Positions 7,493 to 63,691 of a stretch of 64,000 bases of DNA are shown piece by piece. The DNA lies in the NCBI RefSeq assembly GCF_011045215.1, contig NZ_CP049201.1; one strand, written 5' to 3'. The stretch comes from Escherichia coli. GTDB taxonomy: Bacteria > Pseudomonadota > Gammaproteobacteria > Enterobacterales > Enterobacteriaceae. Position numbers and translations under genes: made by a program. Position 1 is the first letter of the stretch, and each line of letters starts with the position of its first letter. The notes under the pieces are model-generated. The model did no database searches. It worked only from the letters and a program-made list of their open reading frames with translations, and was not told the origin of the DNA.

Positions 7493-7648
7493 TTACTCCT
7501 CAGATTCGTAAGCTGTGAAGACAGCGACCTCCGTCTGGCCGGTTCGGATTCGTACCTCGCAGAGGTCTTTCCTCATTACCAGTGCCGTCACTATGACGGT
7601 TAAACAGATGACGATCAGGGCGATTAACATCGCCTTTTGCTGCTTCAT
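7493..7648 (-). CDS. hok: Hok/Gef-family type I toxin
   Basis: MKQQKAMLIALIVICLTVIVTALVMRKDLCEVRIRTGQTEVAVFTAYESEE is near-identical to remembered HokD; AAGGAG 7 nt upstream. Confidence 0.85.
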   Translation of the reverse strand: MKQQKAMLIALIVICLTVIVTALVMRKDLCEVRIRTGQTEVAVFTAYESEE

Positions 7649-7705
7649 AGCCTGCTTCTCCTTGCCTTTCGGCACGTAAGAGGCTAACCTACGTTTGTGT
7701 AGCAT
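7493..7705 (-). CDS. mok-like overlapping reading frame
   Basis: In-frame N-terminal extension (MLHKRRLASYVPKGKEKQA) upstream of the hok ATG, as in hok/mok/sok loci. Confidence 0.45.
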   Translation of the reverse strand: MLHKRRLASYVPKGKEKQAMKQQKAMLIALIVICLTVIVTALVMRKDLCEVRIRTGQTEVAVFTAYESEE

Positions 7706-8102
7706 AGATTGGGCCTCAGATTAATGTTAAGCGTCTTGCCGGACGCGTAATGTTAACTGGGGCTTTTCTCTGTCTGCCTTACAGTGGCATGCCCGAGGCA
7801 GACAGCCTCAGGCACCCGCAACAATCTTACCGACACCGATAAGAAAACGCTATTTTTTATTGCCAGAACCTTCTGCCCAGGCTAATGTATCCGCGTCAGA
7901 ACGGCGCAATGCGCTCGCCTGAGATACGTTTACTTGTCATTGGTGGCAACAGATAACGGCAATTGTTGTTTCTGTTTGTTTCCTTCAAAAACCCCGGACC
8001 ATCAATCCGGGGTTTTTGTTTGTTATCCCCAGCGGCAAATCGAATACACCATCAGCGCCACCGCCATCGCAATTCCTGCCGTTGTGAATGCTTCAGGCCA
8101 GG

Positions 8103-14053: not shown

Positions 14054-14479
14054 TTAATGCACAGCCAGAGTGTTTCCTGCCGGGCCACCACGATTCATCT
14101 GATCGAACAGAACGATCGCTGATGCAACGAAATCATCAATATCTTTCACCAGCCGTTCCTTCGTCTCTACCAACTCCCGAAAATAAGCGGAACTGTGGCT
14201 GCGCATTCGGGCCACCAGCGGAGGCGGCATTGCTTTTTCGATCGCTGGTAACAACGCCTGAATTTTTTTAACCGCATCAGGGGTGTCTTTATCCAGCCAA
14301 CGGAAAATTTTCTGGGTATTACGAGCCAGCGCTTCCGGATGCCTGTCGTCATATAGCTCCGGGAACGTCATACCCAGCTCAAAATAAGCCTGGGTTATTT
14401 CAGCTGCCGGAACTTTTTCACCGTCCGGATGCGCCCAGGCATTCATCGCCATACGGATGTGTTCATGCTTGATTTTCAT
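14054..14479 (-). CDS. YdaT-like regulator (CII-like position)
   Basis: 141 aa; N-terminus MKIKHEHI and length match remembered Rac YdaT; follows the Cro-like gene with a 17-nt overlap. Confidence 0.7.
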   Translation of the reverse strand: MKIKHEHIRMAMNAWAHPDGEKVPAAEITQAYFELGMTFPELYDDRHPEALARNTQKIFRWLDKDTPDAVKKIQALLPAIEKAMPPPLVARMRSHSSAYFRELVETKERLVKDIDDFVASAIVLFDQMNRGGPAGNTLAVH

Positions 14480-14738
14480 GAATCAACTCCGGTGTATTTG
14501 GTGTGTTAGCCTTATCTCCAGCAGGCAACCCGTCAGTTGGATTCGGGTATAAATCTGGTCGCAATTCATGAGGAGTCACCCCAGTTGCAATATAAATTTG
14601 ACGAACCCGTTCCCCCGTCGGAACTCGACCATTGTATTCATTTGCCCATTTGTGTATTTGAGATGGCCAAGCCCCTATTGCACGCCCTAGTGGACGAATA
14701 CCACCAGCAATCTTTATTGCTTTGTCCAATGCTGTCAT
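14463..14738 (-). CDS. Cro/YdaS-like HTH regulator
   Basis: 91-aa ORF divergent from the repressor gene; GGAGG upstream; helix-turn-helix-like segment GIRPLGRAIGAWPSQIHKW. Confidence 0.65.
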   Translation of the reverse strand: MTALDKAIKIAGGIRPLGRAIGAWPSQIHKWANEYNGRVPTGERVRQIYIATGVTPHELRPDLYPNPTDGLPAGDKANTPNTPELIHENQA

Positions 14739-14841: not shown

Positions 14842-15231
14842 ATGGACATGAGAAAAAAGCAATACGACACCCCGCTAGCAGAAAGGTTAGATGCGATCTC
14901 TCAACAGCATCATTTAAGTGGTTCAGATTTAGCGCGTATCGCTGGTGTAGGTCGTTCATCAGTCAACGCATGGAAAAAAAGAGGAACAATCAGTAAAGAT
15001 TCCGCAGCCAAAATTGCAGAAGCCACAAACGTTTCCCTTTCTTGGCTACTGACAGGGAAAGAAGAGACAAATAGAGAAGCGCTTGATGATGACGAGAAGG
15101 CCCTGCTTGATGTTTACAGAAACCTGCCACCTGTAGAACGTAGAAATATGCTGGCAGCTTTTCAAATGCGACTTCAAAAACTGACCGAATTTTACTCAGA
15201 ATACGTCGACCCAATAACACGACAAAAATAA
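14842..15231 (+). CDS. prophage repressor-like HTH protein (XRE family, no peptidase domain)
   Basis: 129 aa; HTH segment LSGSDLARIAGVGRSSVNAWKK; divergent from the Cro-like gene across a 103-bp operator region. Confidence 0.65.
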   Translation: MDMRKKQYDTPLAERLDAISQQHHLSGSDLARIAGVGRSSVNAWKKRGTISKDSAAKIAEATNVSLSWLLTGKEETNREALDDDEKALLDVYRNLPPVERRNMLAAFQMRLQKLTEFYSEYVDPITRQK

Positions 15232-15944: not shown

Positions 15945-16103
15945 ATGAATGAGGCAGAACTGAGACACGTTATAGCATTGCTTCTGGAAGATGCAAAACG
16001 TCTACATGAACTGGAACCAAATGCAGGCACAGGGGCCCGTATTTTGTTAGCAAAAAAATGTCTTGCTTCACAAGTGGTAAAAGCAACTGAACAGCGAGGT
16101 TAA
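15945..16103 (+). CDS. hypothetical small protein
   Basis: Hand-translated 52 aa; TGAGG 7 nt upstream; stop overlaps next start (TAATGATG). Confidence 0.35.
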   Translation: MNEAELRHVIALLLEDAKRLHELEPNAGTGARILLAKKCLASQVVKATEQRG

Positions 16104-16741
16104 TGATGGAATTTAAAGATTTACCGCTATCAATCCAGGGGATTGCAGCACACACACTACGTCAACGTCTGAACGAAGCTATGGCTGAATCTGCAACGAA
16201 AGAAACCATTGATAACATGGCTCGTAATGTGCACGATGCGTTTACCGGATTGTATTTCTGTGCGTCTGTAAATAAACACGACCCAGAGAGTGTGGCAAAG
16301 AAAATTGCAGAAACGACAGTGCAAAACATCAATACGAAACCAACCGAAGACGAAATTGACCAGCCTGCCAGTGAACAAAAGAAAGAAAAATCGCCATATG
16401 CGGGGAACATGTTTGTTTATGACAAACTTATCCGAATTCGTGGCGAAATTCCGACTGAATACCTGGCAAAAATTCACCAGGCATTACTTAAAAATCTGGA
16501 AACGGAAGTATTTGATGGCAACACCAACGGCTCCTTCGTGGTGTCAGCCCTCACAAAAGAATGGGATACAGATAATCGCCGGAATGTTGCTACATGGTTA
16601 TTCAGCAACAAAGCTGCTGCCCTGGAAGCTGCGGCCTGTATTTGCGACCTGCTAAGGACAGACCGCAAATACAACCTGGATGTGTATAGCTATATTTATG
16701 CTGAACACTATCCACTCTGGATTGACTGGTTTAAAGGGTAA
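16103..16741 (+). CDS. hypothetical early-left protein, family not recognised
   Basis: 212-aa ORF translationally coupled to upstream small ORF. Confidence 0.55.
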   Translation: MMEFKDLPLSIQGIAAHTLRQRLNEAMAESATKETIDNMARNVHDAFTGLYFCASVNKHDPESVAKKIAETTVQNINTKPTEDEIDQPASEQKKEKSPYAGNMFVYDKLIRIRGEIPTEYLAKIHQALLKNLETEVFDGNTNGSFVVSALTKEWDTDNRRNVATWLFSNKAAALEAAACICDLLRTDRKYNLDVYSYIYAEHYPLWIDWFKG

Positions 16742-16903
16742 CACCTGCGGGACCGAGCCGACCAGCACCACGATTATTTTATCCTCCATTAAGGGGTGAA
16801 TTAAAAATGGAGACCAACACGCTGCTACGTGTGGTCGTGCGCCGGACACGGATAACCTTCCGGCATGCTCTTTAACAATCTGGATATCCACAACAGCAAT
16901 AAC

Positions 16904-17539
16904 CTACGGATTGCTGCTCAATGCTCTACCTATCTCTTCTTCAGATGGGGGCGGTATATAGTCATCATTGCGTTCAAATTTAAAGCGCGAATCACATTTC
17001 AGGCATTTAGAAATATGGAACTTATCATGCTCACCAATTTCAACAGGTTGAAGTATTGCTATTACACCATGCTGATAGCAATTGGGACAGGCATAGTGAA
17101 AACATGTGTCTTCTTCGTCGAGGCTGTTCCTGAAAGCATAGACAAAATGCCCAAAACCAGTTTTGTGTATCGTATAGCATTCAAGTTTTCGATTACGCTC
17201 GTCAATTTCATGACATTTTTACTTAAGCAAGAGTATTTCCTCGTACTGAAGCGCGAGCGTTTTCGCTAGCTCTGCGTTCTGTATTTGTAAGTCTGCCAGT
17301 TGGCGACGCATTTCGTAGACAGCCTTTTCACGTTCAGATTGGCTTTTTGCATCAAGTATTACCTGTAATAAATCAATCGAGACTTTAATTGCCGTTATTG
17401 ATGAAGTTATTCCAGATAGCATTCTTAACTCTCTTTGTTGTTGGGGTATCCGGATTATACAAAATTCTTGTTGTTGGGGAACAACAGGAACCACCTCGCC
17501 TGATGTGGTTAAAAGCAGGCACACAACACGAAAGCGCAC
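16904..17539 (-). pseudogene. coiled-coil/zinc-ribbon gene interrupted by an in-frame TAA
   Basis: Track ORF 17219..17539 ends at TAA (17219-17221); the same frame continues 104 codons to TAG at 16904-16906 with no ATG/GTG start and CPNC...CLKC zinc-ribbon motifs. Confidence 0.4.
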
Positions 17540-17984
17540 GGCGAAGGTTTCTTTTCCTTAGAAGGCTTGTCGTTAGATTTCTTCGGCCGTGCGCTTCCGG
17601 TTGTGGCAATCCGCGAAATGGCGCGGCGGTAAGTATGGCGGGGTTATCCTTACCCCCACTGGTAGCACCGGGTTGTCAGGTTGACCATACGCTTAAGTGA
17701 CAACCCCGCTACAACATCTCCATGTTGAGGCTTGTGTGAGACCTTTGGCGGCATCAGTTTAATTGCTGGCTGATGTCCGCCCTTTTTAAAGTGAATTTTG
17801 TGATGTGGTGAATGCGGCTAAGCGCACGCGGAACAGTTAAAAGACCATTTGTTCTCCGTATCAATACTTATGGGTAGGTACTTGCAGGCGGGTCCCTGTA
17901 TTCCGGCGTTAATTGTTAACTGGTTAACGTCACCTGGAGGCACCAGGCACCGCATCACAAAATTCATTGTTGAGGACGCGATAA

Positions 17985-18172
17985 TGGAAACGTTATTACT
18001 CAATTCCACTACGCCTGAGACTCGTTTTGAAATTGGCGTTATCACTGGCGATAAAAACTTTATTGAGGATGCCATTAATCAGATAAAGCATGAGCCAGAT
18101 TCATCAAATGAGATATGCATTGCTTCAATGCTGGCCCGTTTACGCCCGACGCAAAAAGGATGCTGGCAATGA
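17985..18172 (+). CDS. hypothetical small protein
   Basis: 62-aa ORF from internal ATG with GAGGA 7 nt upstream. Confidence 0.35.
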
Positions 18173-18449: not shown

Positions 18450-20885
18450 ATGAGCACTGATAAAGAAGAATTTGCATTATATTGTGAAGCAAAAAATGAC
18501 AAAGTCAGAAAACGCCTTGGAATTAAAGGTGGTTTTTACTGGACTACAGCAAAAAAATTATCTGTTGCCATCTCCCGCTGCATTACCGCAATGGATGACA
18601 ACGATTATGATGAAGACGACTTTAAAAAACCCGTCCGCGTCCATTTACCCGTTGTGAATGACCTTCCACCTGAAGGCGTGTTTGATACTGAATTCTGTAA
18701 CCGTTACGAAAAAGGCGGGGAAGATGGCATCACAATGGTATTTATCGCGCCCTCACCCTCTGCGCAGGACAAACCAGCCAACATTGACAATACCAACGTC
18801 AACGGCGAAGACATGACTGAGATTGAGGAGAACATGCTCCTGCCGGTTTCAGGTCAGATTCTGCCTGTTCGATGGCTGGCACAGCACGGCAGCAAAAAAC
18901 CGATCACACACGTTTCGCGGGACGAACTGCGCGCATTACATAACGCACAGGATGAAAAACTTCCCGCCGTTACCGCGCTGGCTATCTCAAATAAAGCAGC
19001 GCAACTCGAACCGCTGGAGATTCGCGATCTCCACAAACTGGTGCGAGACACTGACAAAGTTTTCCCCGCCCCCGTAAATTCGGACCTGGGACTGATAACC
19101 TCTTTTATCGAAGCATACCTAGACGCCGACTACACCGATCGCGGTCTGCTGACAAAAGAGTGGATGAAAGGAAATCGTGTTTCGCGTATCACCCGTACGG
19201 CTTCCGGTGCAAATGCCGGTGGCGGGAACAAAACCGATCGCAATCCGAATTTAGTACACACCTTCGATACGCTGGATGTGGAGATTGCAACAGCCACACT
19301 TCCGATGGATTTTAATATTTATGAAATTCCGGGCAGCGTTTATCGTCGCGCAAAAGAAATCGTCCTGAAAAGAGAAAGTCCGTTCAAAGAATGGTCCGCA
19401 GCACTTCGCGCAACCCCGGGTATTCTGGATTATTCCCGCGCCGCTATTTTTGCACTTATCCGGAGCGCTCACCCTGAGTTTTATCACTACCCGGGACGCC
19501 TTCAGGGGTATATCAACGCCCACTTAACGGAGACTGATCACGAGAACCCCAGCAAGGAAACTCTCACTGCTGCACGACATACACCGGAAAAAGACATCCT
19601 GGAAGAAGTTAACCGCGAACTGGCTGCTGAACGCGAAACAGAAGAAGAAAAAAATAATGAGGAAAAATCACAACCGTCTGACGCAATGGCAGATGAACAG
19701 GCAACGACTGAAGCAATGGGACAGGATACAACTGAATATCGCCAGGACACACAATCGCTGGATACTCAGGCACAGATAAATCCGGTTAATCAGGTAAAAG
19801 TTACCGCTGACGAAGTAAACAAAATTATGCAGGCAGCCAATATCAACCAGCCTGATGCCGACAAAATACTGGCAGTCCATCGCGGTGAATTCGTTGACGG
19901 AATTAGCGACCCGAATGATCCGAAATGGGTTAAGGGGATTGAAACCCGCGATTCTGTGAACCAGAACCAGCCCGAATCGGAACAAAACAGCCAAAATGCG
20001 TTACAAAACGAGCCAGAAACGAAACAGCCTGAACCAGAAGAGCAACAAGAACCGGAAAAAGTCTGCACCGCCTGCGGTCAGACCGGCGGCGGCAACTGTC
20101 CTGACTGTGGCGCGGTGATGGGCGACGCAACATACCAGGAAACATTCGATGAAAAAAATCAGGCTGAAGTTCAGGAAGATGATCCGGAGGAAATGGAAGG
20201 CGCTGAACATCCGAACAATGAGAATGCTGGTAACGATCAGTATCACGCCAGCGATAGTGAAACTGGCGAGGCGACAGATCCCTTAATTAATGTGAACGGT
20301 CATCACGAAATCACATCCACCAGCAGTACGTGTGACCATCTAATGATCGACCTTGAAACCATGGGAAAAAATCCTGATGCCCCGATTATCTCAATAGGTG
20401 CAATATTTTTCGATCCGCAAACCGGAGATATGGGACCGGAATTTAGTAAGACTATAGATCTGGAAACAGCTGGCGGAGTCATTGATCGTGACACCATTAA
20501 ATGGTGGCTTAAGCAATCACGCGAGGCGCAATCTGCCATTCTGACCGATGAAATCCCGTTAGATGATGCACTGTTGCAATTGCGGGAATTTATCGACGAA
20601 AACTCCGGCGAATTTTTTGTTCGTGTCTGGGGAAATGGAGCCAGCTTCGACAACGTAATTTTACGCCGTTCATATGAACGGCAGGGGATCCCCTGCCCGT
20701 GGCGTTACTACAACGATCGCGATGTACGCACAATTCTTGAACTGGGAAAAGCCATAGACTTCGATGCCAGAACGGCTATTCCATTCGAAGGCGTACCCCA
20801 CAATGCGCTGGACGATGCCCGTCACCAGGCAAAACAAGTTTCAGCTATCTGGCAAAACCTGATCCCGAGTCAGGCTGATTTTTAA
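18450..20885 (+). CDS. large phage exonuclease-like protein (C-terminal DnaQ/DEDDh-like 3'-5' exonuclease, acidic linker, zinc ribbon)
   Basis: 811 aa; C-terminus LMIDLETMG...WGNGASFDN...HNALDDARH fits DEDDh motifs; CTACGQTGGGNCPDCG zinc ribbon; E/Q-rich low-complexity centre. Confidence 0.7.
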   Translation: MSTDKEEFALYCEAKNDKVRKRLGIKGGFYWTTAKKLSVAISRCITAMDDNDYDEDDFKKPVRVHLPVVNDLPPEGVFDTEFCNRYEKGGEDGITMVFIAPSPSAQDKPANIDNTNVNGEDMTEIEENMLLPVSGQILPVRWLAQHGSKKPITHVSRDELRALHNAQDEKLPAVTALAISNKAAQLEPLEIRDLHKLVRDTDKVFPAPVNSDLGLITSFIEAYLDADYTDRGLLTKEWMKGNRVSRITRTASGANAGGGNKTDRNPNLVHTFDTLDVEIATATLPMDFNIYEIPGSVYRRAKEIVLKRESPFKEWSAALRATPGILDYSRAAIFALIRSAHPEFYHYPGRLQGYINAHLTETDHENPSKETLTAARHTPEKDILEEVNRELAAERETEEEKNNEEKSQPSDAMADEQATTEAMGQDTTEYRQDTQSLDTQAQINPVNQVKVTADEVNKIMQAANINQPDADKILAVHRGEFVDGISDPNDPKWVKGIETRDSVNQNQPESEQNSQNALQNEPETKQPEPEEQQEPEKVCTACGQTGGGNCPDCGAVMGDATYQETFDEKNQAEVQEDDPEEMEGAEHPNNENAGNDQYHASDSETGEATDPLINVNGHHEITSTSSTCDHLMIDLETMGKNPDAPIISIGAIFFDPQTGDMGPEFSKTIDLETAGGVIDRDTIKWWLKQSREAQSAILTDEIPLDDALLQLREFIDENSGEFFVRVWGNGASFDNVILRRSYERQGIPCPWRYYNDRDVRTILELGKAIDFDARTAIPFEGVPHNALDDARHQAKQVSAIWQNLIPSQADF

Positions 20886-20949: not shown

Positions 20950-21198
20950 ATGGCAAGACTTATTCTGCTCACTGAGTGGGCAAAAGAGGAATTCAGCGAT
21001 CCGGTCCCTACTCCGGGCACGTTAAGTAAATACGCTAAAGCCGGAATGATATTTCCTCTCCCCAAAAAAGTTGGAAGACACTGGCGAGTGGATCCACGAG
21101 CTCGCTTTGTCGGAATGGTAAACAAGCCGGAGGTGATCGCCACAGATCACCCTGCTTTGAAGAGGATACTGGAAGATGGCGCGCCCGCGAAAATATAA
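20950..21198 (+). CDS. xis: excisionase (lambda Xis-like)
   Basis: 82 aa, overlaps int start as in lambda; GMIFPLPKKVGRHWRVDPRARFVG resembles lambda Xis. Confidence 0.7.
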   Translation: MARLILLTEWAKEEFSDPVPTPGTLSKYAKAGMIFPLPKKVGRHWRVDPRARFVGMVNKPEVIATDHPALKRILEDGAPAKI

Positions 21199-22306
21199 AA
21201 CCGAAGTTCCGGGACTATCTCCGTATTTTGACAAAAGAAATAACAAAGTTTACTGGCGTTACAGGCATCCCATAACAGGCAAAAATCACGGTCTCGGCAG
21301 TATTGACCAGAAACTGGCAGAAACTATTGCAGCAGAAGCGAACAGCCGTCTTGCCAGGCAGCAAATGGAACAAATGCTCAGTCTGCAGGAGAAAATTATT
21401 AATGATACCGGCGGTTCATCAACCGTTTCCATTTTTCTGAATAATTACAGAAAAATTCAACAGGAAAGATATGAAAACGGAGAGATCAAACTCAACACGC
21501 TGAAACAAAAAGCGGCCCCTCTCAGGGTATTTGATGAACGTTTTGGCACCAGACCGTTAGATGCCATAACTGTAAAAGATGTGGTATCGGTGCTGGAAGA
21601 GTACAAGGCCAGAGGACATAACAGAATGGGGCAAATTTTCAGGAAGGTACTGATCGATGTTTTCCGGGAAGCTCAGCAAACAGGCGATGTTCCGCCAGGC
21701 TTTAACCCTGCAGAATCGGCAAAAAAACCGCAGGTGCGGATATCAAGACAGCGACTGACTTTTGATGAGTGGATGATGATTTATAACGCAGCGGAAAAGG
21801 ATGGTTACTTTTTACAGCGCGGCATGCTGCTGGCACTGATGACAGGCCAGCGCCTTTCAGATATTTGCAAAATGCAATTTTCGGATATCCGGGATGGTTA
21901 TCTTCATGTCGAACAGCAAAAAACAGGAACCCGGATTGCCATCCCTCTTGCTCTGCGTTGCAATAAATTAAATCTCACCCTGGATGATGTGGTGTCATCC
22001 TGTCGCGATTGCGTTCTTAGTCCGTGGCTATTGCACCACCATCATGCGAAAGGGACAGCCAAGCGCGGCGGGATGGTTAAGCCAGCAACGTTAACAGTTG
22101 CATTTAAAAAAGCGCGGGATTCTGTGGATTACAACTGGCGTGCTAATGGCACCCCACCCTCTTTCCATGAGCAGAGATCTTTATCAGAGCGATTGTTCAG
22201 AGAGCAGGGAATTGATACCCAAATTTTGCTGGGTCATTCGAATCAAAAAATGACCGATATTTACAACGATGCACGCGGCAAGGAGTGGAAAAAACTGGTC
22301 ATTTGA
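21176..22306 (+). CDS. int: tyrosine integrase (lambda Int family)
   Basis: 376 aa; LTFDEWMMIYNAA...LALMTGQRLSDICKMQFSDIRDGYLHVEQQKTGTRIAIPLAL aligns with remembered lambda Int catalytic region. Confidence 0.9.
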   Translation: MARPRKYKTEVPGLSPYFDKRNNKVYWRYRHPITGKNHGLGSIDQKLAETIAAEANSRLARQQMEQMLSLQEKIINDTGGSSTVSIFLNNYRKIQQERYENGEIKLNTLKQKAAPLRVFDERFGTRPLDAITVKDVVSVLEEYKARGHNRMGQIFRKVLIDVFREAQQTGDVPPGFNPAESAKKPQVRISRQRLTFDEWMMIYNAAEKDGYFLQRGMLLALMTGQRLSDICKMQFSDIRDGYLHVEQQKTGTRIAIPLALRCNKLNLTLDDVVSSCRDCVLSPWLLHHHHAKGTAKRGGMVKPATLTVAFKKARDSVDYNWRANGTPPSFHEQRSLSERLFREQGIDTQILLGHSNQKMTDIYNDARGKEWKKLVI

Positions 22307-47271: not shown

Positions 47272-47430
47272 TCACTTTCAAAAGTACCTGAACTCTCAAG
47301 CGAATCCGTAAATAAATATTCTGCCCAAGCGGGGAAGGACGAGAAGCTTCGACCAAGGTTCGACTCGAGCGCCAGCGAGAGAGCGTTGCCGCAGGCAACG
47401 ACCCGAAGGGCGAAGCGCGCAGCGCTGAGT

Positions 47431-47449
47431 AATCCTTCCTCCACCACCA
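47431..47449 (+). repeat. direct repeat of the tRNA-Tyr 3' end (tyrT downstream repeat unit)
   Basis: AATCCTTCCTCCACCACCA matches the tRNA 3' terminus with one mismatch; an AAGGTTCGAcTC partial copy lies at about 47357. Confidence 0.6.
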
Positions 47450-63287: not shown

Positions 63288-63691
63288 CAGTTATATCTCC
63301 TCCGATGACGGAAATCGGGGGAGATAATATAAATTCCTGCTTATTGTATTTCTTCATACTACCTGGACAGGTCGTTAATCAGAATTGCGAGCCTGTACCA
63401 CAACCTGCACGAATCCACTGCAACAGCTGTTGAAAAGCCGGAATGTACTCTTCATTGCAAACATTTCAGGGATGAAGTGAAGATGAATTGAGACGTAGTA
63501 TCCACACCAAGCCGGCGTTATCCGGTGAGGCGCAATGTTGCGGGGGCTTTATCCCTGGTGGCATTGGTTGCTGGAAAGAGAAAACCCCCGCACGTTGAGA
63601 GGTAAAACCTGACAACAGAACGGGGGCTAATCTTGAAACCAGACACTTCAAGAATAGCCGCAAAATGTTGTCATTACAACAAGGCGGCTAT

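What the first reader, a model, noticed from the sequence alone, without database searches (positions are those of the whole stretch)
16904..17539. Zinc-ribbon gene split by an in-frame TAA
The 106-codon ORF ending at TAA 17219-17221 continues in the same frame for another 104 codons that have no ATG or GTG start and carry CxxC...CxxC motifs (CPNC, CLKC). The upstream half is a coiled coil. It reads as a single gene of about 211 codons disrupted by a nonsense codon, lying opposite to the surrounding early-left genes in the slot where sieB and kil-type exclusion genes sit in Rac and lambda.
Basis: seen in the sequence. Interest (0 to 1): 0.45.

Follow-up and report, generated by a model that had tools for sequence, protein, structure and literature searches.

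The report
Nonsense-broken Rip1 anti-phage prophage gene
This is one prophage gene, a distant relative of the recently solved anti-phage protein Rip1, that a single C-to-T change has cut short at codon 68, so it is an ordinary dead copy of a known type of defence gene.

Summary
On the minus strand, an ORF ends at TAA 17221-17219. The same frame then runs stop-free for 104 more codons to TAG 16906-16904, with no ATG or GTG and two CxxC pairs. In two near-identical E. coli genomes the TAA is CAA (Gln) and the gene is intact. The same TAA allele occurs in at least 9 independent assemblies (23 contigs), so it is a real allele and not a sequencing error.

The likely start is ATG 17422, giving 172 codons intact and 67 truncated, not about 211.

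The intact protein belongs to a large single-chain family: PHROG 1244 and 343 representative clusters. Its solved member is phage HK446 Rip1 ("ring interacting pore 1", PDB 9oox, bound to the T6 small terminase). The profile E-value is 3.8e-38, hhalign gives 99.8%, and 9oox is the top Foldseek hit.

HK446 rip1 sits in the same position: opposite strand, inside the early-left operon, where sieB sits in lambda (position from my own knowledge).

Most likely this is a loss-of-function allele that lacks the whole zinc-ribbon domain. Other homologues carry independent disruptions: a frameshift at the same spot in Salmonella, and TAG and TAA stops elsewhere. Interest is low to moderate.

The parts
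16904..17422 (-). Disrupted rip1-family gene: 172 codons from ATG 17422-17420 to TAG 16906-16904, interrupted at codon 68.
   Evidence: Translation. Identical gene with CAA at codon 68 in C5 and strain 41. Full-length match to phrog_1244 and to HK446 Rip1, PDB 9oox.
17219..17221 (-). Premature ochre stop TAA at codon 68. It is CAA (Gln) in the intact alleles, so this is a single C>T transition.
   Evidence: Alignment A1, column 502. Per-codon comparison. The Salmonella orthologue also has CAA.
17222..17422 (-). The 67 codons still translatable: the uncharged N-terminal helix plus about three quarters of the long stalk helix.
   Evidence: AF2 helices at residues 2-24 and 28-81. Residues 2-12 are uncharged across 110 homologues. 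Gene callers extend this ORF to GTG 17539 (106 aa).
16907..17218 (-). Untranslated remnant, codons 69-172: the end of the stalk helix and the whole four-Cys zinc-ribbon beta domain (CPNC 17089-17078, CLKC 17005-16994).
   Evidence: No ATG or GTG in frame. The first downstream ATGs (17214, then 17211, which opens the 49-aa ORF) are out of frame. C112 and C115 are invariant and C140 and C143 nearly so in the family. dN/dS is 0.30 against the Salmonella allele.
17429..17479 (-). Probable promoter and leader: extended -10 TGTATAAT (17461-17454), flanked by two exact CCCCAACAACAA repeats (17479-17468 and 17446-17435), then GAGAG (17433-17429) 6 nt before the ATG.
   Evidence: Read from the sequence. 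Repeats: 2 exact copies against 0.39 expected. The block is conserved up to the start codon even where the coding cassette is a different subfamily (TK3046). The consensus promoter scan did not flag it because the -35 is poor. Function is inferred.
16803..16836 (-). Terminator-like hairpin (GACCACACGU-AGCA-GCGUGUUGGUC) followed by UCCAUUUUU, 68 nt after the TAG.
   Evidence: RNA fold. The whole-stretch z-score is only -1.5, and the terminator scan did not flag it. This is an inference.
17733..17782 (+). DicF-like sRNA of the early-left (dicB) operon. It marks the context: the rip1-like gene lies antisense to that operon, just upstream of dicF.
   Evidence: Rfam RF00039, 45.4 bits, E 3.4e-8, just under the gathering score of 48. 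Its hairpin plus T-run is flagged.

Best explanation
The feature is one gene of a Qin/Rac-like lambdoid prophage, transcribed against the early-left (dicB) operon from its own promoter.

Its intact form is a 172-aa protein of the Rip1 ("ring interacting pore 1") family. It has an uncharged N-terminal helix, a long stalk helix, and a C-terminal four-cysteine zinc-ribbon domain.

In the one studied member, HK446 Rip1, twelve copies assemble on the 11-subunit small-terminase ring of an infecting phage (T6). The reported model is a pore-based defence against superinfection.

In this window a single C-to-T change turned Gln68 (CAA) into TAA. Translation therefore stops after 67 residues. The end of the stalk and the entire zinc-ribbon domain are not made. 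No in-frame restart codon exists. The copy is most likely a loss-of-function allele, that is, a pseudogene.

Shown here: the stop, its CAA ancestor, family membership and the shared genomic position.

Inferred: that the zinc-ribbon head is the terminase-binding part and the N-terminal helix the membrane part, that this subfamily also senses a small terminase, and that the truncated product is inactive.
For: Stop and continuing frame.

CAA in place of TAA in two near-identical genomes whose gene is annotated intact.

A real allele, not an error: 106-aa products P0005 and P0006. P0005 lies on 23 contigs. Nine assemblies were fetched, their genes are 99.8-100% identical to the window, and they sit next to at least six different immunity modules.

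Single-chain family:
- phrog_1244 is matched over 3-156 of the protein.
- 343 representative clusters reach E<=1e-3, mostly 145-175 aa and spanning both halves.
- The Cys residues are conserved.

Rip1 membership:
- Profile against PDB 9oox_L: E 3.8e-38, positions 4-149, 12 chains in the entry.
- Single sequence: E 6e-9.
- hhalign: 99.8%, E 1.8e-28.
- AF2 model pLDDT 92, with 9oox_L and 9oox_M as its only significant PDB hits (probability 1.0, TM 0.57/0.74).

Same genomic position as HK446 gp37 and HK620 hkaP.

Rip1 biology:
- The PDB title states Rip1 in complex with T6 small terminase.
- PMC12908700 reports a prophage-encoded protein, an 11-mer terminase capped by 12 Rip1 monomers, and a suggested pore-based defence.
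- bioRxiv 10.64898/2026.04.30.721860 says Rip1 senses the small terminase.

Both halves evolved under purifying selection before the break: dN/dS 0.40 and 0.30.

Among the TAA alleles, the only further changes lie after the stop and both are non-synonymous (P126S, I164M).
Against: - Identity to HK446 Rip1 is only about 24%, so the trigger and even the activity of this subfamily could differ.
- The primary Rip1 paper was not in the searchable library. The mechanism rests on a PDB title, a meeting report and a one-line citation.
- No expression, read-level or protein data are available.
- The TAA allele is at least as common in public assemblies as the intact one and sits in many prophage backgrounds. 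A purely neutral, recent pseudogene explains this less easily than a tolerated or favoured one.
- Two accumulated substitutions are far too few to demonstrate relaxed constraint.
Confidence: 0.85

Rival explanations
1. Adaptive or functional truncation. The stop was selected, or the 67-aa helical fragment still does something. Selection could arise because a pore-forming abortive-infection protein is costly, or is triggered by the small terminase of this or a co-resident prophage. A retained function could be poisoning the assembly of paralogous Rip1 copies, or acting as a small membrane peptide.
For: - The TAA allele is found on 23 contigs next to at least six different immunity regions, while staying 99.8-100% identical.
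- The Salmonella orthologue is broken independently at the same place, by a -1 deletion in the A5 run of codons 68-69, seen in two independent assemblies.
- Other homologues carry independent in-frame stops: TAG at codon 82 in L020 and TAA near codon 45 in L021. There is also a 78-aa N-terminal remnant.
- Promoter, RBS and the N-terminal 67 codons are untouched.
Against: - The count is small and was noticed post hoc. Fragments shorter than about 60 aa would not have been detected by the search, which biases breaks towards the middle of the gene.
- The breaks are of different kinds and at different codons (45, 68, 68/69, 82, about 100). That is what random decay of accessory genes in cryptic prophages looks like.
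- Spread across backgrounds can come from ordinary recombination between co-resident lambdoid prophages.
- There is no evidence that the fragment is stable or made.
Confidence: 0.1
2. Sequencing or assembly error. The real genome has CAA and the gene is intact.
For: It is a single-base difference from the intact alleles. Read support cannot be inspected with these tools.
Against: - Exactly the same TAA is present in 9 fetched independent NCBI assemblies, and 23 contigs in all carry the 106-aa product.
- The window's own variant of the product (P0006, with Phe26) is already on record from a 5.4-Mb contig.
- The change is a substitution, not a homopolymer-length error.
Confidence: 0.03
3. The split is functional as written. 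Either the two halves are separate genes, or a full-length protein is made by stop-codon readthrough or reinitiation.
For: The downstream frame is still completely open (104 codons) and nearly unchanged.
Against: - There is no ATG, GTG or usable TTG in frame, and no Shine-Dalgarno after the stop.
- The ATGs just downstream (17214, a two-codon ORF, and 17211, the 49-aa ORF) are out of frame.
- Almost all family representatives are single uninterrupted chains.
- The stop is TAA followed by A. From my own knowledge, this is an efficient terminator in E. coli with no known programmed readthrough.
- The open downstream frame is explained by the youth of the mutation: 0-1 further changes in 519 nt.
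Confidence: 0.02

Closest known systems
Rip1 (ring interacting pore 1) of Escherichia phage HK446, gp37 / YP_007111990, PDB 9oox
   Same: - Homologous over essentially the full length: profile E 3.8e-38, hhalign 99.8%.
- Same predicted fold, a long helical stalk plus a zinc-ribbon beta domain.
- The same four Cys and the same Y/G/ILQ motifs.
- Similar size (164 vs 172 aa).
- Same genomic position and orientation: a lone gene on the opposite strand inside the early-left operon of a lambdoid phage.
   Different: - Only about 24% identical.
- It has a 20-residue C-terminal tail (DYIPPPSEEEIGRALSSNP) that HK446 Rip1 lacks. That tail is shared with other E. coli prophage alleles.
- The host phage is a Qin/Rac-type dicB-dicF prophage, not an N-antitermination phage.
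- Above all, this copy is cut at codon 68, so it cannot make the domain that defines the family.
- Trigger specificity is unknown.
PHROG 1244 / HK620 hkaP and the allelic cassettes next to dicF in E. coli prophages (e.g. WP_050940250 in TK3046)
   Same: - Same family (E 7.5e-32 and 6.7e-51).
- Same slot.
- TK3046 has an identical promoter and leader up to the start codon, and a conserved C-terminal ...DYIP...EI.R.LGSNP end.
- Flanking DNA is present in 4353 of 5426 complete E. coli genomes.
   Different: - The coding cassette is only about 33% identical to the TK3046 type.
- The window's subtype is rare: 2 of 5426 complete genomes.
- Those copies are intact.
SieB (lambda, P22, Rac) superinfection exclusion / abortive infection protein
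   Same: Same kind of location: a lone opposite-strand gene in the early-left region, expressed from the prophage. This is from my own knowledge of lambda and Rac maps. HK620 hkaP was annotated as a putative superinfection exclusion protein for this reason.
   Different: - No sequence relationship: no Pfam or NCBIfam hit to SieB.
- SieB is a membrane protein without a zinc ribbon (my own knowledge).
- This is a positional analogue only.
TerI and Avs1-3, other defences that sense phage terminase
   Same: They also use a conserved packaging protein of the invader as the trigger (bioRxiv 10.64898/2026.04.30.721860).
   Different: - Avs proteins are large STAND NTPases that sense the large terminase.
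- There is no homology: no PADLOC hit.
- Rip1-type proteins are about 170-aa single-domain-pair proteins reported to sense the small terminase ring.

Membership tests
Rip1 (ring interacting pore 1) family | Full-length sequence homology to the solved member (HK446 Rip1, PDB 9oox) | tested here: met
   A profile of 110 homologues built on the repaired protein hits 9oox_L at E 3.8e-38 over profile positions 4-149. The single sequence gives E 6.1e-9. hhalign against HK446 gp37 gives 99.8%, E 1.8e-28.
Rip1 (ring interacting pore 1) family | Fold: long N-terminal helices followed by a compact beta zinc-ribbon domain | tested here: met
   AF2 model (pLDDT 92, pTM 0.69) has helices 2-24 and 28-81, then beta strands. 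Foldseek against the PDB returns only 9oox_L and 9oox_M as significant hits (probability 1.00, E 2e-7, TM 0.47-0.57 on the query and 0.61-0.74 on the target).
Rip1 (ring interacting pore 1) family | Four conserved Cys (CxxC ... CxxC) and the Y83 / G91 / ILQ motifs | tested here: met
   C112 and C115 are invariant. C140, C143, Y83, G91 and L124 are at least 90% conserved in 110 sequences. All are encoded in the window's frame and align with HK446 Rip1. In the window they lie downstream of the stop.
Rip1 (ring interacting pore 1) family | Prophage-borne lone gene on the opposite strand within the early-left operon | tested here: met
   HK446 gp37 lies between N and ral/cIII on the opposite strand. 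HK620 hkaP does likewise. The window gene lies between the phrog_2151 gene and dicF/dicB, on the opposite strand.
Rip1 (ring interacting pore 1) family | An uninterrupted reading frame able to give the full protein | tested here: not met
   TAA at codon 68 (17221-17219) with no in-frame restart. The window copy is a disrupted member: a pseudogene by homology, not a functional member.
Rip1 (ring interacting pore 1) family | Binding to a phage small-terminase ring, 12-mer assembly, pore formation, protection against phage | not testable with these tools
   Known only for HK446 Rip1, from the PDB title and chain count and the meeting report PMC12908700. This needs plaque assays and biochemistry on a CAA-restored allele.
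SieB / Kil-type exclusion genes | Sequence membership (Pfam or NCBIfam SieB or Kil models) | tested here: not met
   No such hit at E<=1 in Pfam or NCBIfam. Only the genomic position is analogous.
Naturally split two-gene system | Homologues consistently encoded as two adjacent ORFs, the second with its own start | tested here: not met
   Nearly all of the 150 best representatives are single chains of 140-210 aa spanning both halves. The few short ones that were looked up are broken copies (L015/L016 frameshift; L020 and L021 in-frame stops) or a remnant beside a full-length paralogue (L017-L019).

The most novel reading that the evidence does not exclude
The break is not random decay. Rip1-type genes may be repeatedly switched off at the stalk/head junction: here by CAA>TAA, and in Salmonella by slippage in the adjacent A5 run. 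One possible reason is that a terminase-triggered pore is dangerous to a lysogen carrying several inducible prophages. Another is that the retained 67-aa helical fragment acts as a dominant-negative regulator of the paralogous Rip1 copies, which E. coli genomes carry in up to 8 dicF-linked slots.
Probability: 0.1. Interest if true: 0.55.

Novelty: new member of a known kind. Interest (0 to 1): 0.3.

Why it matters
It turns a "hypothetical protein / internal stop" into something interpretable. The lone opposite-strand gene next to dicF in Qin/Rac-type prophages belongs to the Rip1 family of small-terminase-sensing defence proteins. The conserved DNA that flanks it (upstream leader/dicF-precursor region and 3' end) is present in about 80% of complete E. 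coli genomes. The gene exists there as highly divergent allelic cassettes behind one conserved promoter.

For this strain, the practical meaning is that this particular defence is probably off.

The recurrent, independent disruptions in the family hint that carrying such a pore-forming sensor has a cost. That would be worth testing, but it is not established here.

Tried and rejected
- **Domain libraries.** Pfam, NCBIfam and PADLOC (2023) gave no significant family for the repaired protein. The only weak hits were coiled-coil noise and a sub-threshold ECs_2282 CxxC match (E 0.016). Scanning all 110 homologues against Pfam gave only scattered zinc-ribbon and coiled-coil hits.
- **Literature.** Five of the eight full-text searches were aimed at the primary Rip1 paper and two more were related. 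None found it. Only a meeting report and one citing preprint were usable. Two other "rip1" hits were unrelated. One search failed on a too-short term.
- **Source genome.** The look-up of P0006, the window's exact 106-aa product, found no contig record, so the source genome was not identified. No complete RefSeq E. coli genome carries the TAA allele. Only the two intact copies cover the region.
- **Promoter and terminator scan.** The consensus scan found neither the putative promoter nor the terminator of the gene. Both are my reading of the sequence.
- **DicF.** The Rfam gathering-threshold scan missed DicF. It appears only in the E-value scan, at 45.4 bits, under the cut-off of 48.
- **Other ORFs considered and rejected as genes.** These were the antisense 134-aa ORF 16865-17269 (+), the out-of-frame 49-aa ORF 17062-17211 (-), and the 103-aa ORF 17389-17700 (+). 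None has family support.
- **SieB/Kil homology.** Rejected.

Full report
**1. What is in the sequence**

The feature lies on the minus strand. The ORF listing and a direct translation show an ORF from GTG 17539 to TAA 17221-17219 (106 codons). After the TAA, the same frame stays open for 104 codons, to TAG 16906-16904.

The second half contains no ATG or GTG. Its only TTG is six codons from the end. It encodes CPNC (17089-17078) and CLKC (17005-16994). The ATGs immediately downstream of the stop are both out of frame: 17214 opens a two-codon ORF and 17211 opens a 49-aa ORF.

**2. Is it one broken gene?**

Megablast against 5,426 complete E. coli genomes finds only two that carry the whole region: strain C5 (98.5%) and strain 41 (94.6%). 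In both, RefSeq annotates one uninterrupted CDS across it, of 211 and 196 aa.

In the three-way alignment the only coding difference between the window and C5 is the first base of codon 68: TAA here, CAA (Gln) there.

A diverged orthologue in Salmonella also has CAA. Between the E. coli and Salmonella alleles, dN/dS is 0.40 for codons 1-67 and 0.30 for codons 69-172. Both halves were therefore coding sequence under constraint. The TAA is a derived nonsense mutation in a single gene.

**3. Not a sequencing error**

The protein database already holds the 106-aa truncated product. P0005 is on 23 contigs. P0006 is identical to the window's product.

Nine independent NCBI assemblies were fetched. 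All carry TAA, and their 519-nt genes are 100% or 99.8% identical to the window. The neighbouring immunity regions in these nine assemblies are of at least six different kinds, so the allele circulates among mosaic prophages.

The only additional changes in these TAA alleles are P126S and I164M. Both lie after the stop and both are non-synonymous. This fits relaxed constraint but is far too little to prove it.

**4. True start and signals**

Family members begin with M-(I/L)-x-x-I...IK and are 145-175 aa long. Two database entries of this subfamily are called at 172 aa. ATG 17422 matches that N-terminus.

ATG 17422 is preceded by GAGAG (17433-17429) and by an extended -10, TGTATAAT (17461-17454). 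The -10 sits between two exact CCCCAACAACAA repeats.

This leader is conserved base for base up to the start codon in strain TK3046, whose coding cassette is only about 33% identical. So the gene is most likely 172 codons, and the surviving product 67 residues. The 106 and roughly 211 figures come from an upstream in-frame GTG.

A hairpin followed by a U-run lies at 16836-16803, after the TAG. The promoter and terminator are my inferences; the consensus scanner flagged neither.

**5. What the gene is**

Pfam, NCBIfam and PADLOC-2023 give nothing. PHROG 1244 (unknown function) is matched end to end.

An exhaustive HMMER search finds 343 representative clusters at E<=1e-3. Nearly all are single chains spanning both halves. 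In an alignment of 110 of them, C112 and C115 are invariant, and C140, C143, Y83, G91 and L124 are at least 90% conserved.

A profile of that alignment hits one PDB entry very strongly. This is 9oox, "ring interacting pore 1 (Rip1)", at E 3.8e-38 over positions 4-149, with 12 chains of that sequence in the entry.
- The single sequence gives E 6e-9.
- hhalign against HK446 gp37 gives 99.8%.
- The AlphaFold2 model of the repaired protein (pLDDT 92) has helices 2-24 and 28-81, followed by a small beta domain.
- Its only significant PDB matches are 9oox_L and 9oox_M, [quoted passage not shown].

**6. Context**

The window's plus strand carries, in order, the early-left operon of a Qin/Rac-type prophage:
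- a CI-type repressor (14842-15231)
- DUF1391 (ydfA-like)
- a phrog_1744 gene
- a phrog_2151 gene (16103-16741)
- the rip1-like gene, on the opposite strand
- DicF (17733-17782; 45.4 bits)
- DicB
- DUF1482
- RecE (18450-20885)
- an integrase-sized ORF of 376 aa (21176-22306; not checked)

In HK446 the rip1 gene (gp37) lies between N and ral/cIII, also on the opposite strand. HK620 hkaP, a homologue, sits likewise and was annotated as a putative superinfection exclusion protein. From my own knowledge of the lambda map, this is where sieB sits.

**7. How it most likely works**

For Rip1 itself, the accessible sources are these:
- the PDB title;
- a preprint stating that Rip1 senses the small terminase subunit.

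From the anatomy I infer three roles. The zinc-ribbon head engages the terminase ring. The stalk helices bundle. The N-terminal helix inserts in the membrane once twelve copies are brought together. Supporting that last point, the N-terminal helix is uncharged at residues 2-12 across the family, and probably corresponds to the roughly 40 residues not modelled in 9oox, since the chains have 124-126 of 164 residues.

The window's allele stops at residue 67. It keeps the N-terminal helix and most of the stalk but has no head and no Cys ligands. It should therefore be unable to sense the trigger. I put 0.85 on "loss-of-function allele of a Rip1-family defence gene".

**8. A wrinkle**

Disruptions recur in this family:
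- The Salmonella orthologue has a -1 deletion in the A5 run of codons 68-69, adjacent to the E. coli mutation. It is seen in a GenBank assembly and in an independent SRA assembly.
- Other subfamilies show an in-frame TAG at codon 82 (L020), an in-frame TAA near codon 45 (L021), and a frameshift near residue 100 (P0134).
- One locus has a 78-aa N-terminal remnant lying just upstream of a full-length paralogue (L017-L019).

This could mean that such genes are costly and are often inactivated, or that the N-terminal fragment is useful. However, the sample is small and post hoc. The search could not have detected very short fragments. Decay of accessory genes in cryptic prophages is common. I give the adaptive or functional-fragment reading 0.1.

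**9. Comparison and novelty**

The closest known system is HK446 Rip1. Fold, motifs, size and genomic position are the same. Identity is about 24%, the C-terminal tail differs, the phage background differs and, decisively, the frame is broken.

The window gene is a disrupted new member of a known (2026) family. It is not a new kind of system.

What is mildly useful is the generalisation. The divergent "hypothetical" cassettes behind the conserved leader next to dicF are Rip1 homologues. The conserved DNA on either side of the cassette matches in 4,353 of 5,426 complete E. coli genomes, at up to 8 places per genome.

**10. Verdict**

- Interest is 0.3.

Noticed in passing
window 17733-17782 (+): DicF-like sRNA with its terminator hairpin. 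It scores 45.4 bits, just below Rfam's gathering score of 48, so the default scan misses it. The rip1-like gene is antisense to the transcript that would be processed into DicF.
   Followed up: partly
window 17784-18003 (+): Sub-threshold match to Rfam STnc100 (33.9 bits against a gathering score of 47, E 3.9e-5). It lies immediately after DicF and overlaps the start of the dicB-like ORF region.
   Followed up: no
window 17435-17446 and 17468-17479 (-): Two exact CCCCAACAACAA direct repeats bracket the extended -10 of the rip1-like gene (2 exact copies against 0.39 expected). They are conserved in prophages whose rip1 cassette is a different subfamily, so they could be operator sites or part of the antisense dicF-precursor structure.
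   Followed up: partly
window 17510-17720: This roughly 200-nt non-coding stretch upstream of the gene, between it and dicF, is one of the two flanks that account for matches at 80-95% identity in 4,353 of 5,426 complete E. coli genomes, at up to 8 places per genome, while the coding cassette between the flanks is swapped. Megablast of the query also matches an Actinobacillus pleuropneumoniae phage record; which part it matches was not checked.
   Followed up: partly
window 16103-16741 (+): A 212-aa gene of PHROG 2151 (unknown function, no Pfam) lies convergent with the rip1-like gene. It accompanies this rip1 subtype in C5 and in all 9 TAA-allele loci fetched, but not in strain 41. A possible functional partner, or just linkage.
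   Followed up: partly
L015 3001-3520 and L016 (Salmonella enterica assemblies): The Salmonella orthologue of this gene is broken by a -1 deletion in the A5 run at codons 68-69, right next to the E. coli nonsense site. An intact 172-aa Salmonella allele (P0004) also exists.
   Followed up: yes
L020 1076-1600; L021 1-585: Two other Rip1-family subfamilies carry independent in-frame stops (TAG at codon 82; TAA near codon 45), with the rest of the frame still open.
   Followed up: partly
L018 1501-2319 (also L017, L019): A 78-aa N-terminal Rip1 remnant is followed 66 nt later by a complete 171-aa Rip1 paralogue, next to kilR. It looks like a cassette replacement that left the old 5' end behind.
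   Followed up: partly
Pseudomonas Mu-like phages (DMS3, JBD30, D3112 orf25, MP38 ORF25) and Klebsiella phages: Rip1-family homologues (25-31% identity, about 90% coverage) are present in transposable Pseudomonas phages and Klebsiella prophages. The family therefore extends well beyond lambdoid coliphages.
   Followed up: no
window 7643-7817 (-), 63579-63644 (-), 47318-47449 (+): Rfam gathering-level hits are a sok antitoxin RNA (implying a hok/sok module inside the prophage part), the rdlD antitoxin RNA, and RtT next to a tRNA. The right-hand two thirds of the window was not examined. From the sizes of its large ORFs alone I guessed it is chromosomal (opp, adhE and nar neighbourhood), and this was not checked.
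   Followed up: no
window 14054-14738 (-) and 14842-15231 (+): The immunity region is of the YdaS/YdaT type (Cro-like YdaS_toxin family and YdaT_toxin/CII-like family), facing a 129-aa Phage_CI_repr repressor. Loci carrying the same TAA allele have at least six different immunity modules, some with ParE/PaaA2 toxin-antitoxin pairs inserted.
   Followed up: partly
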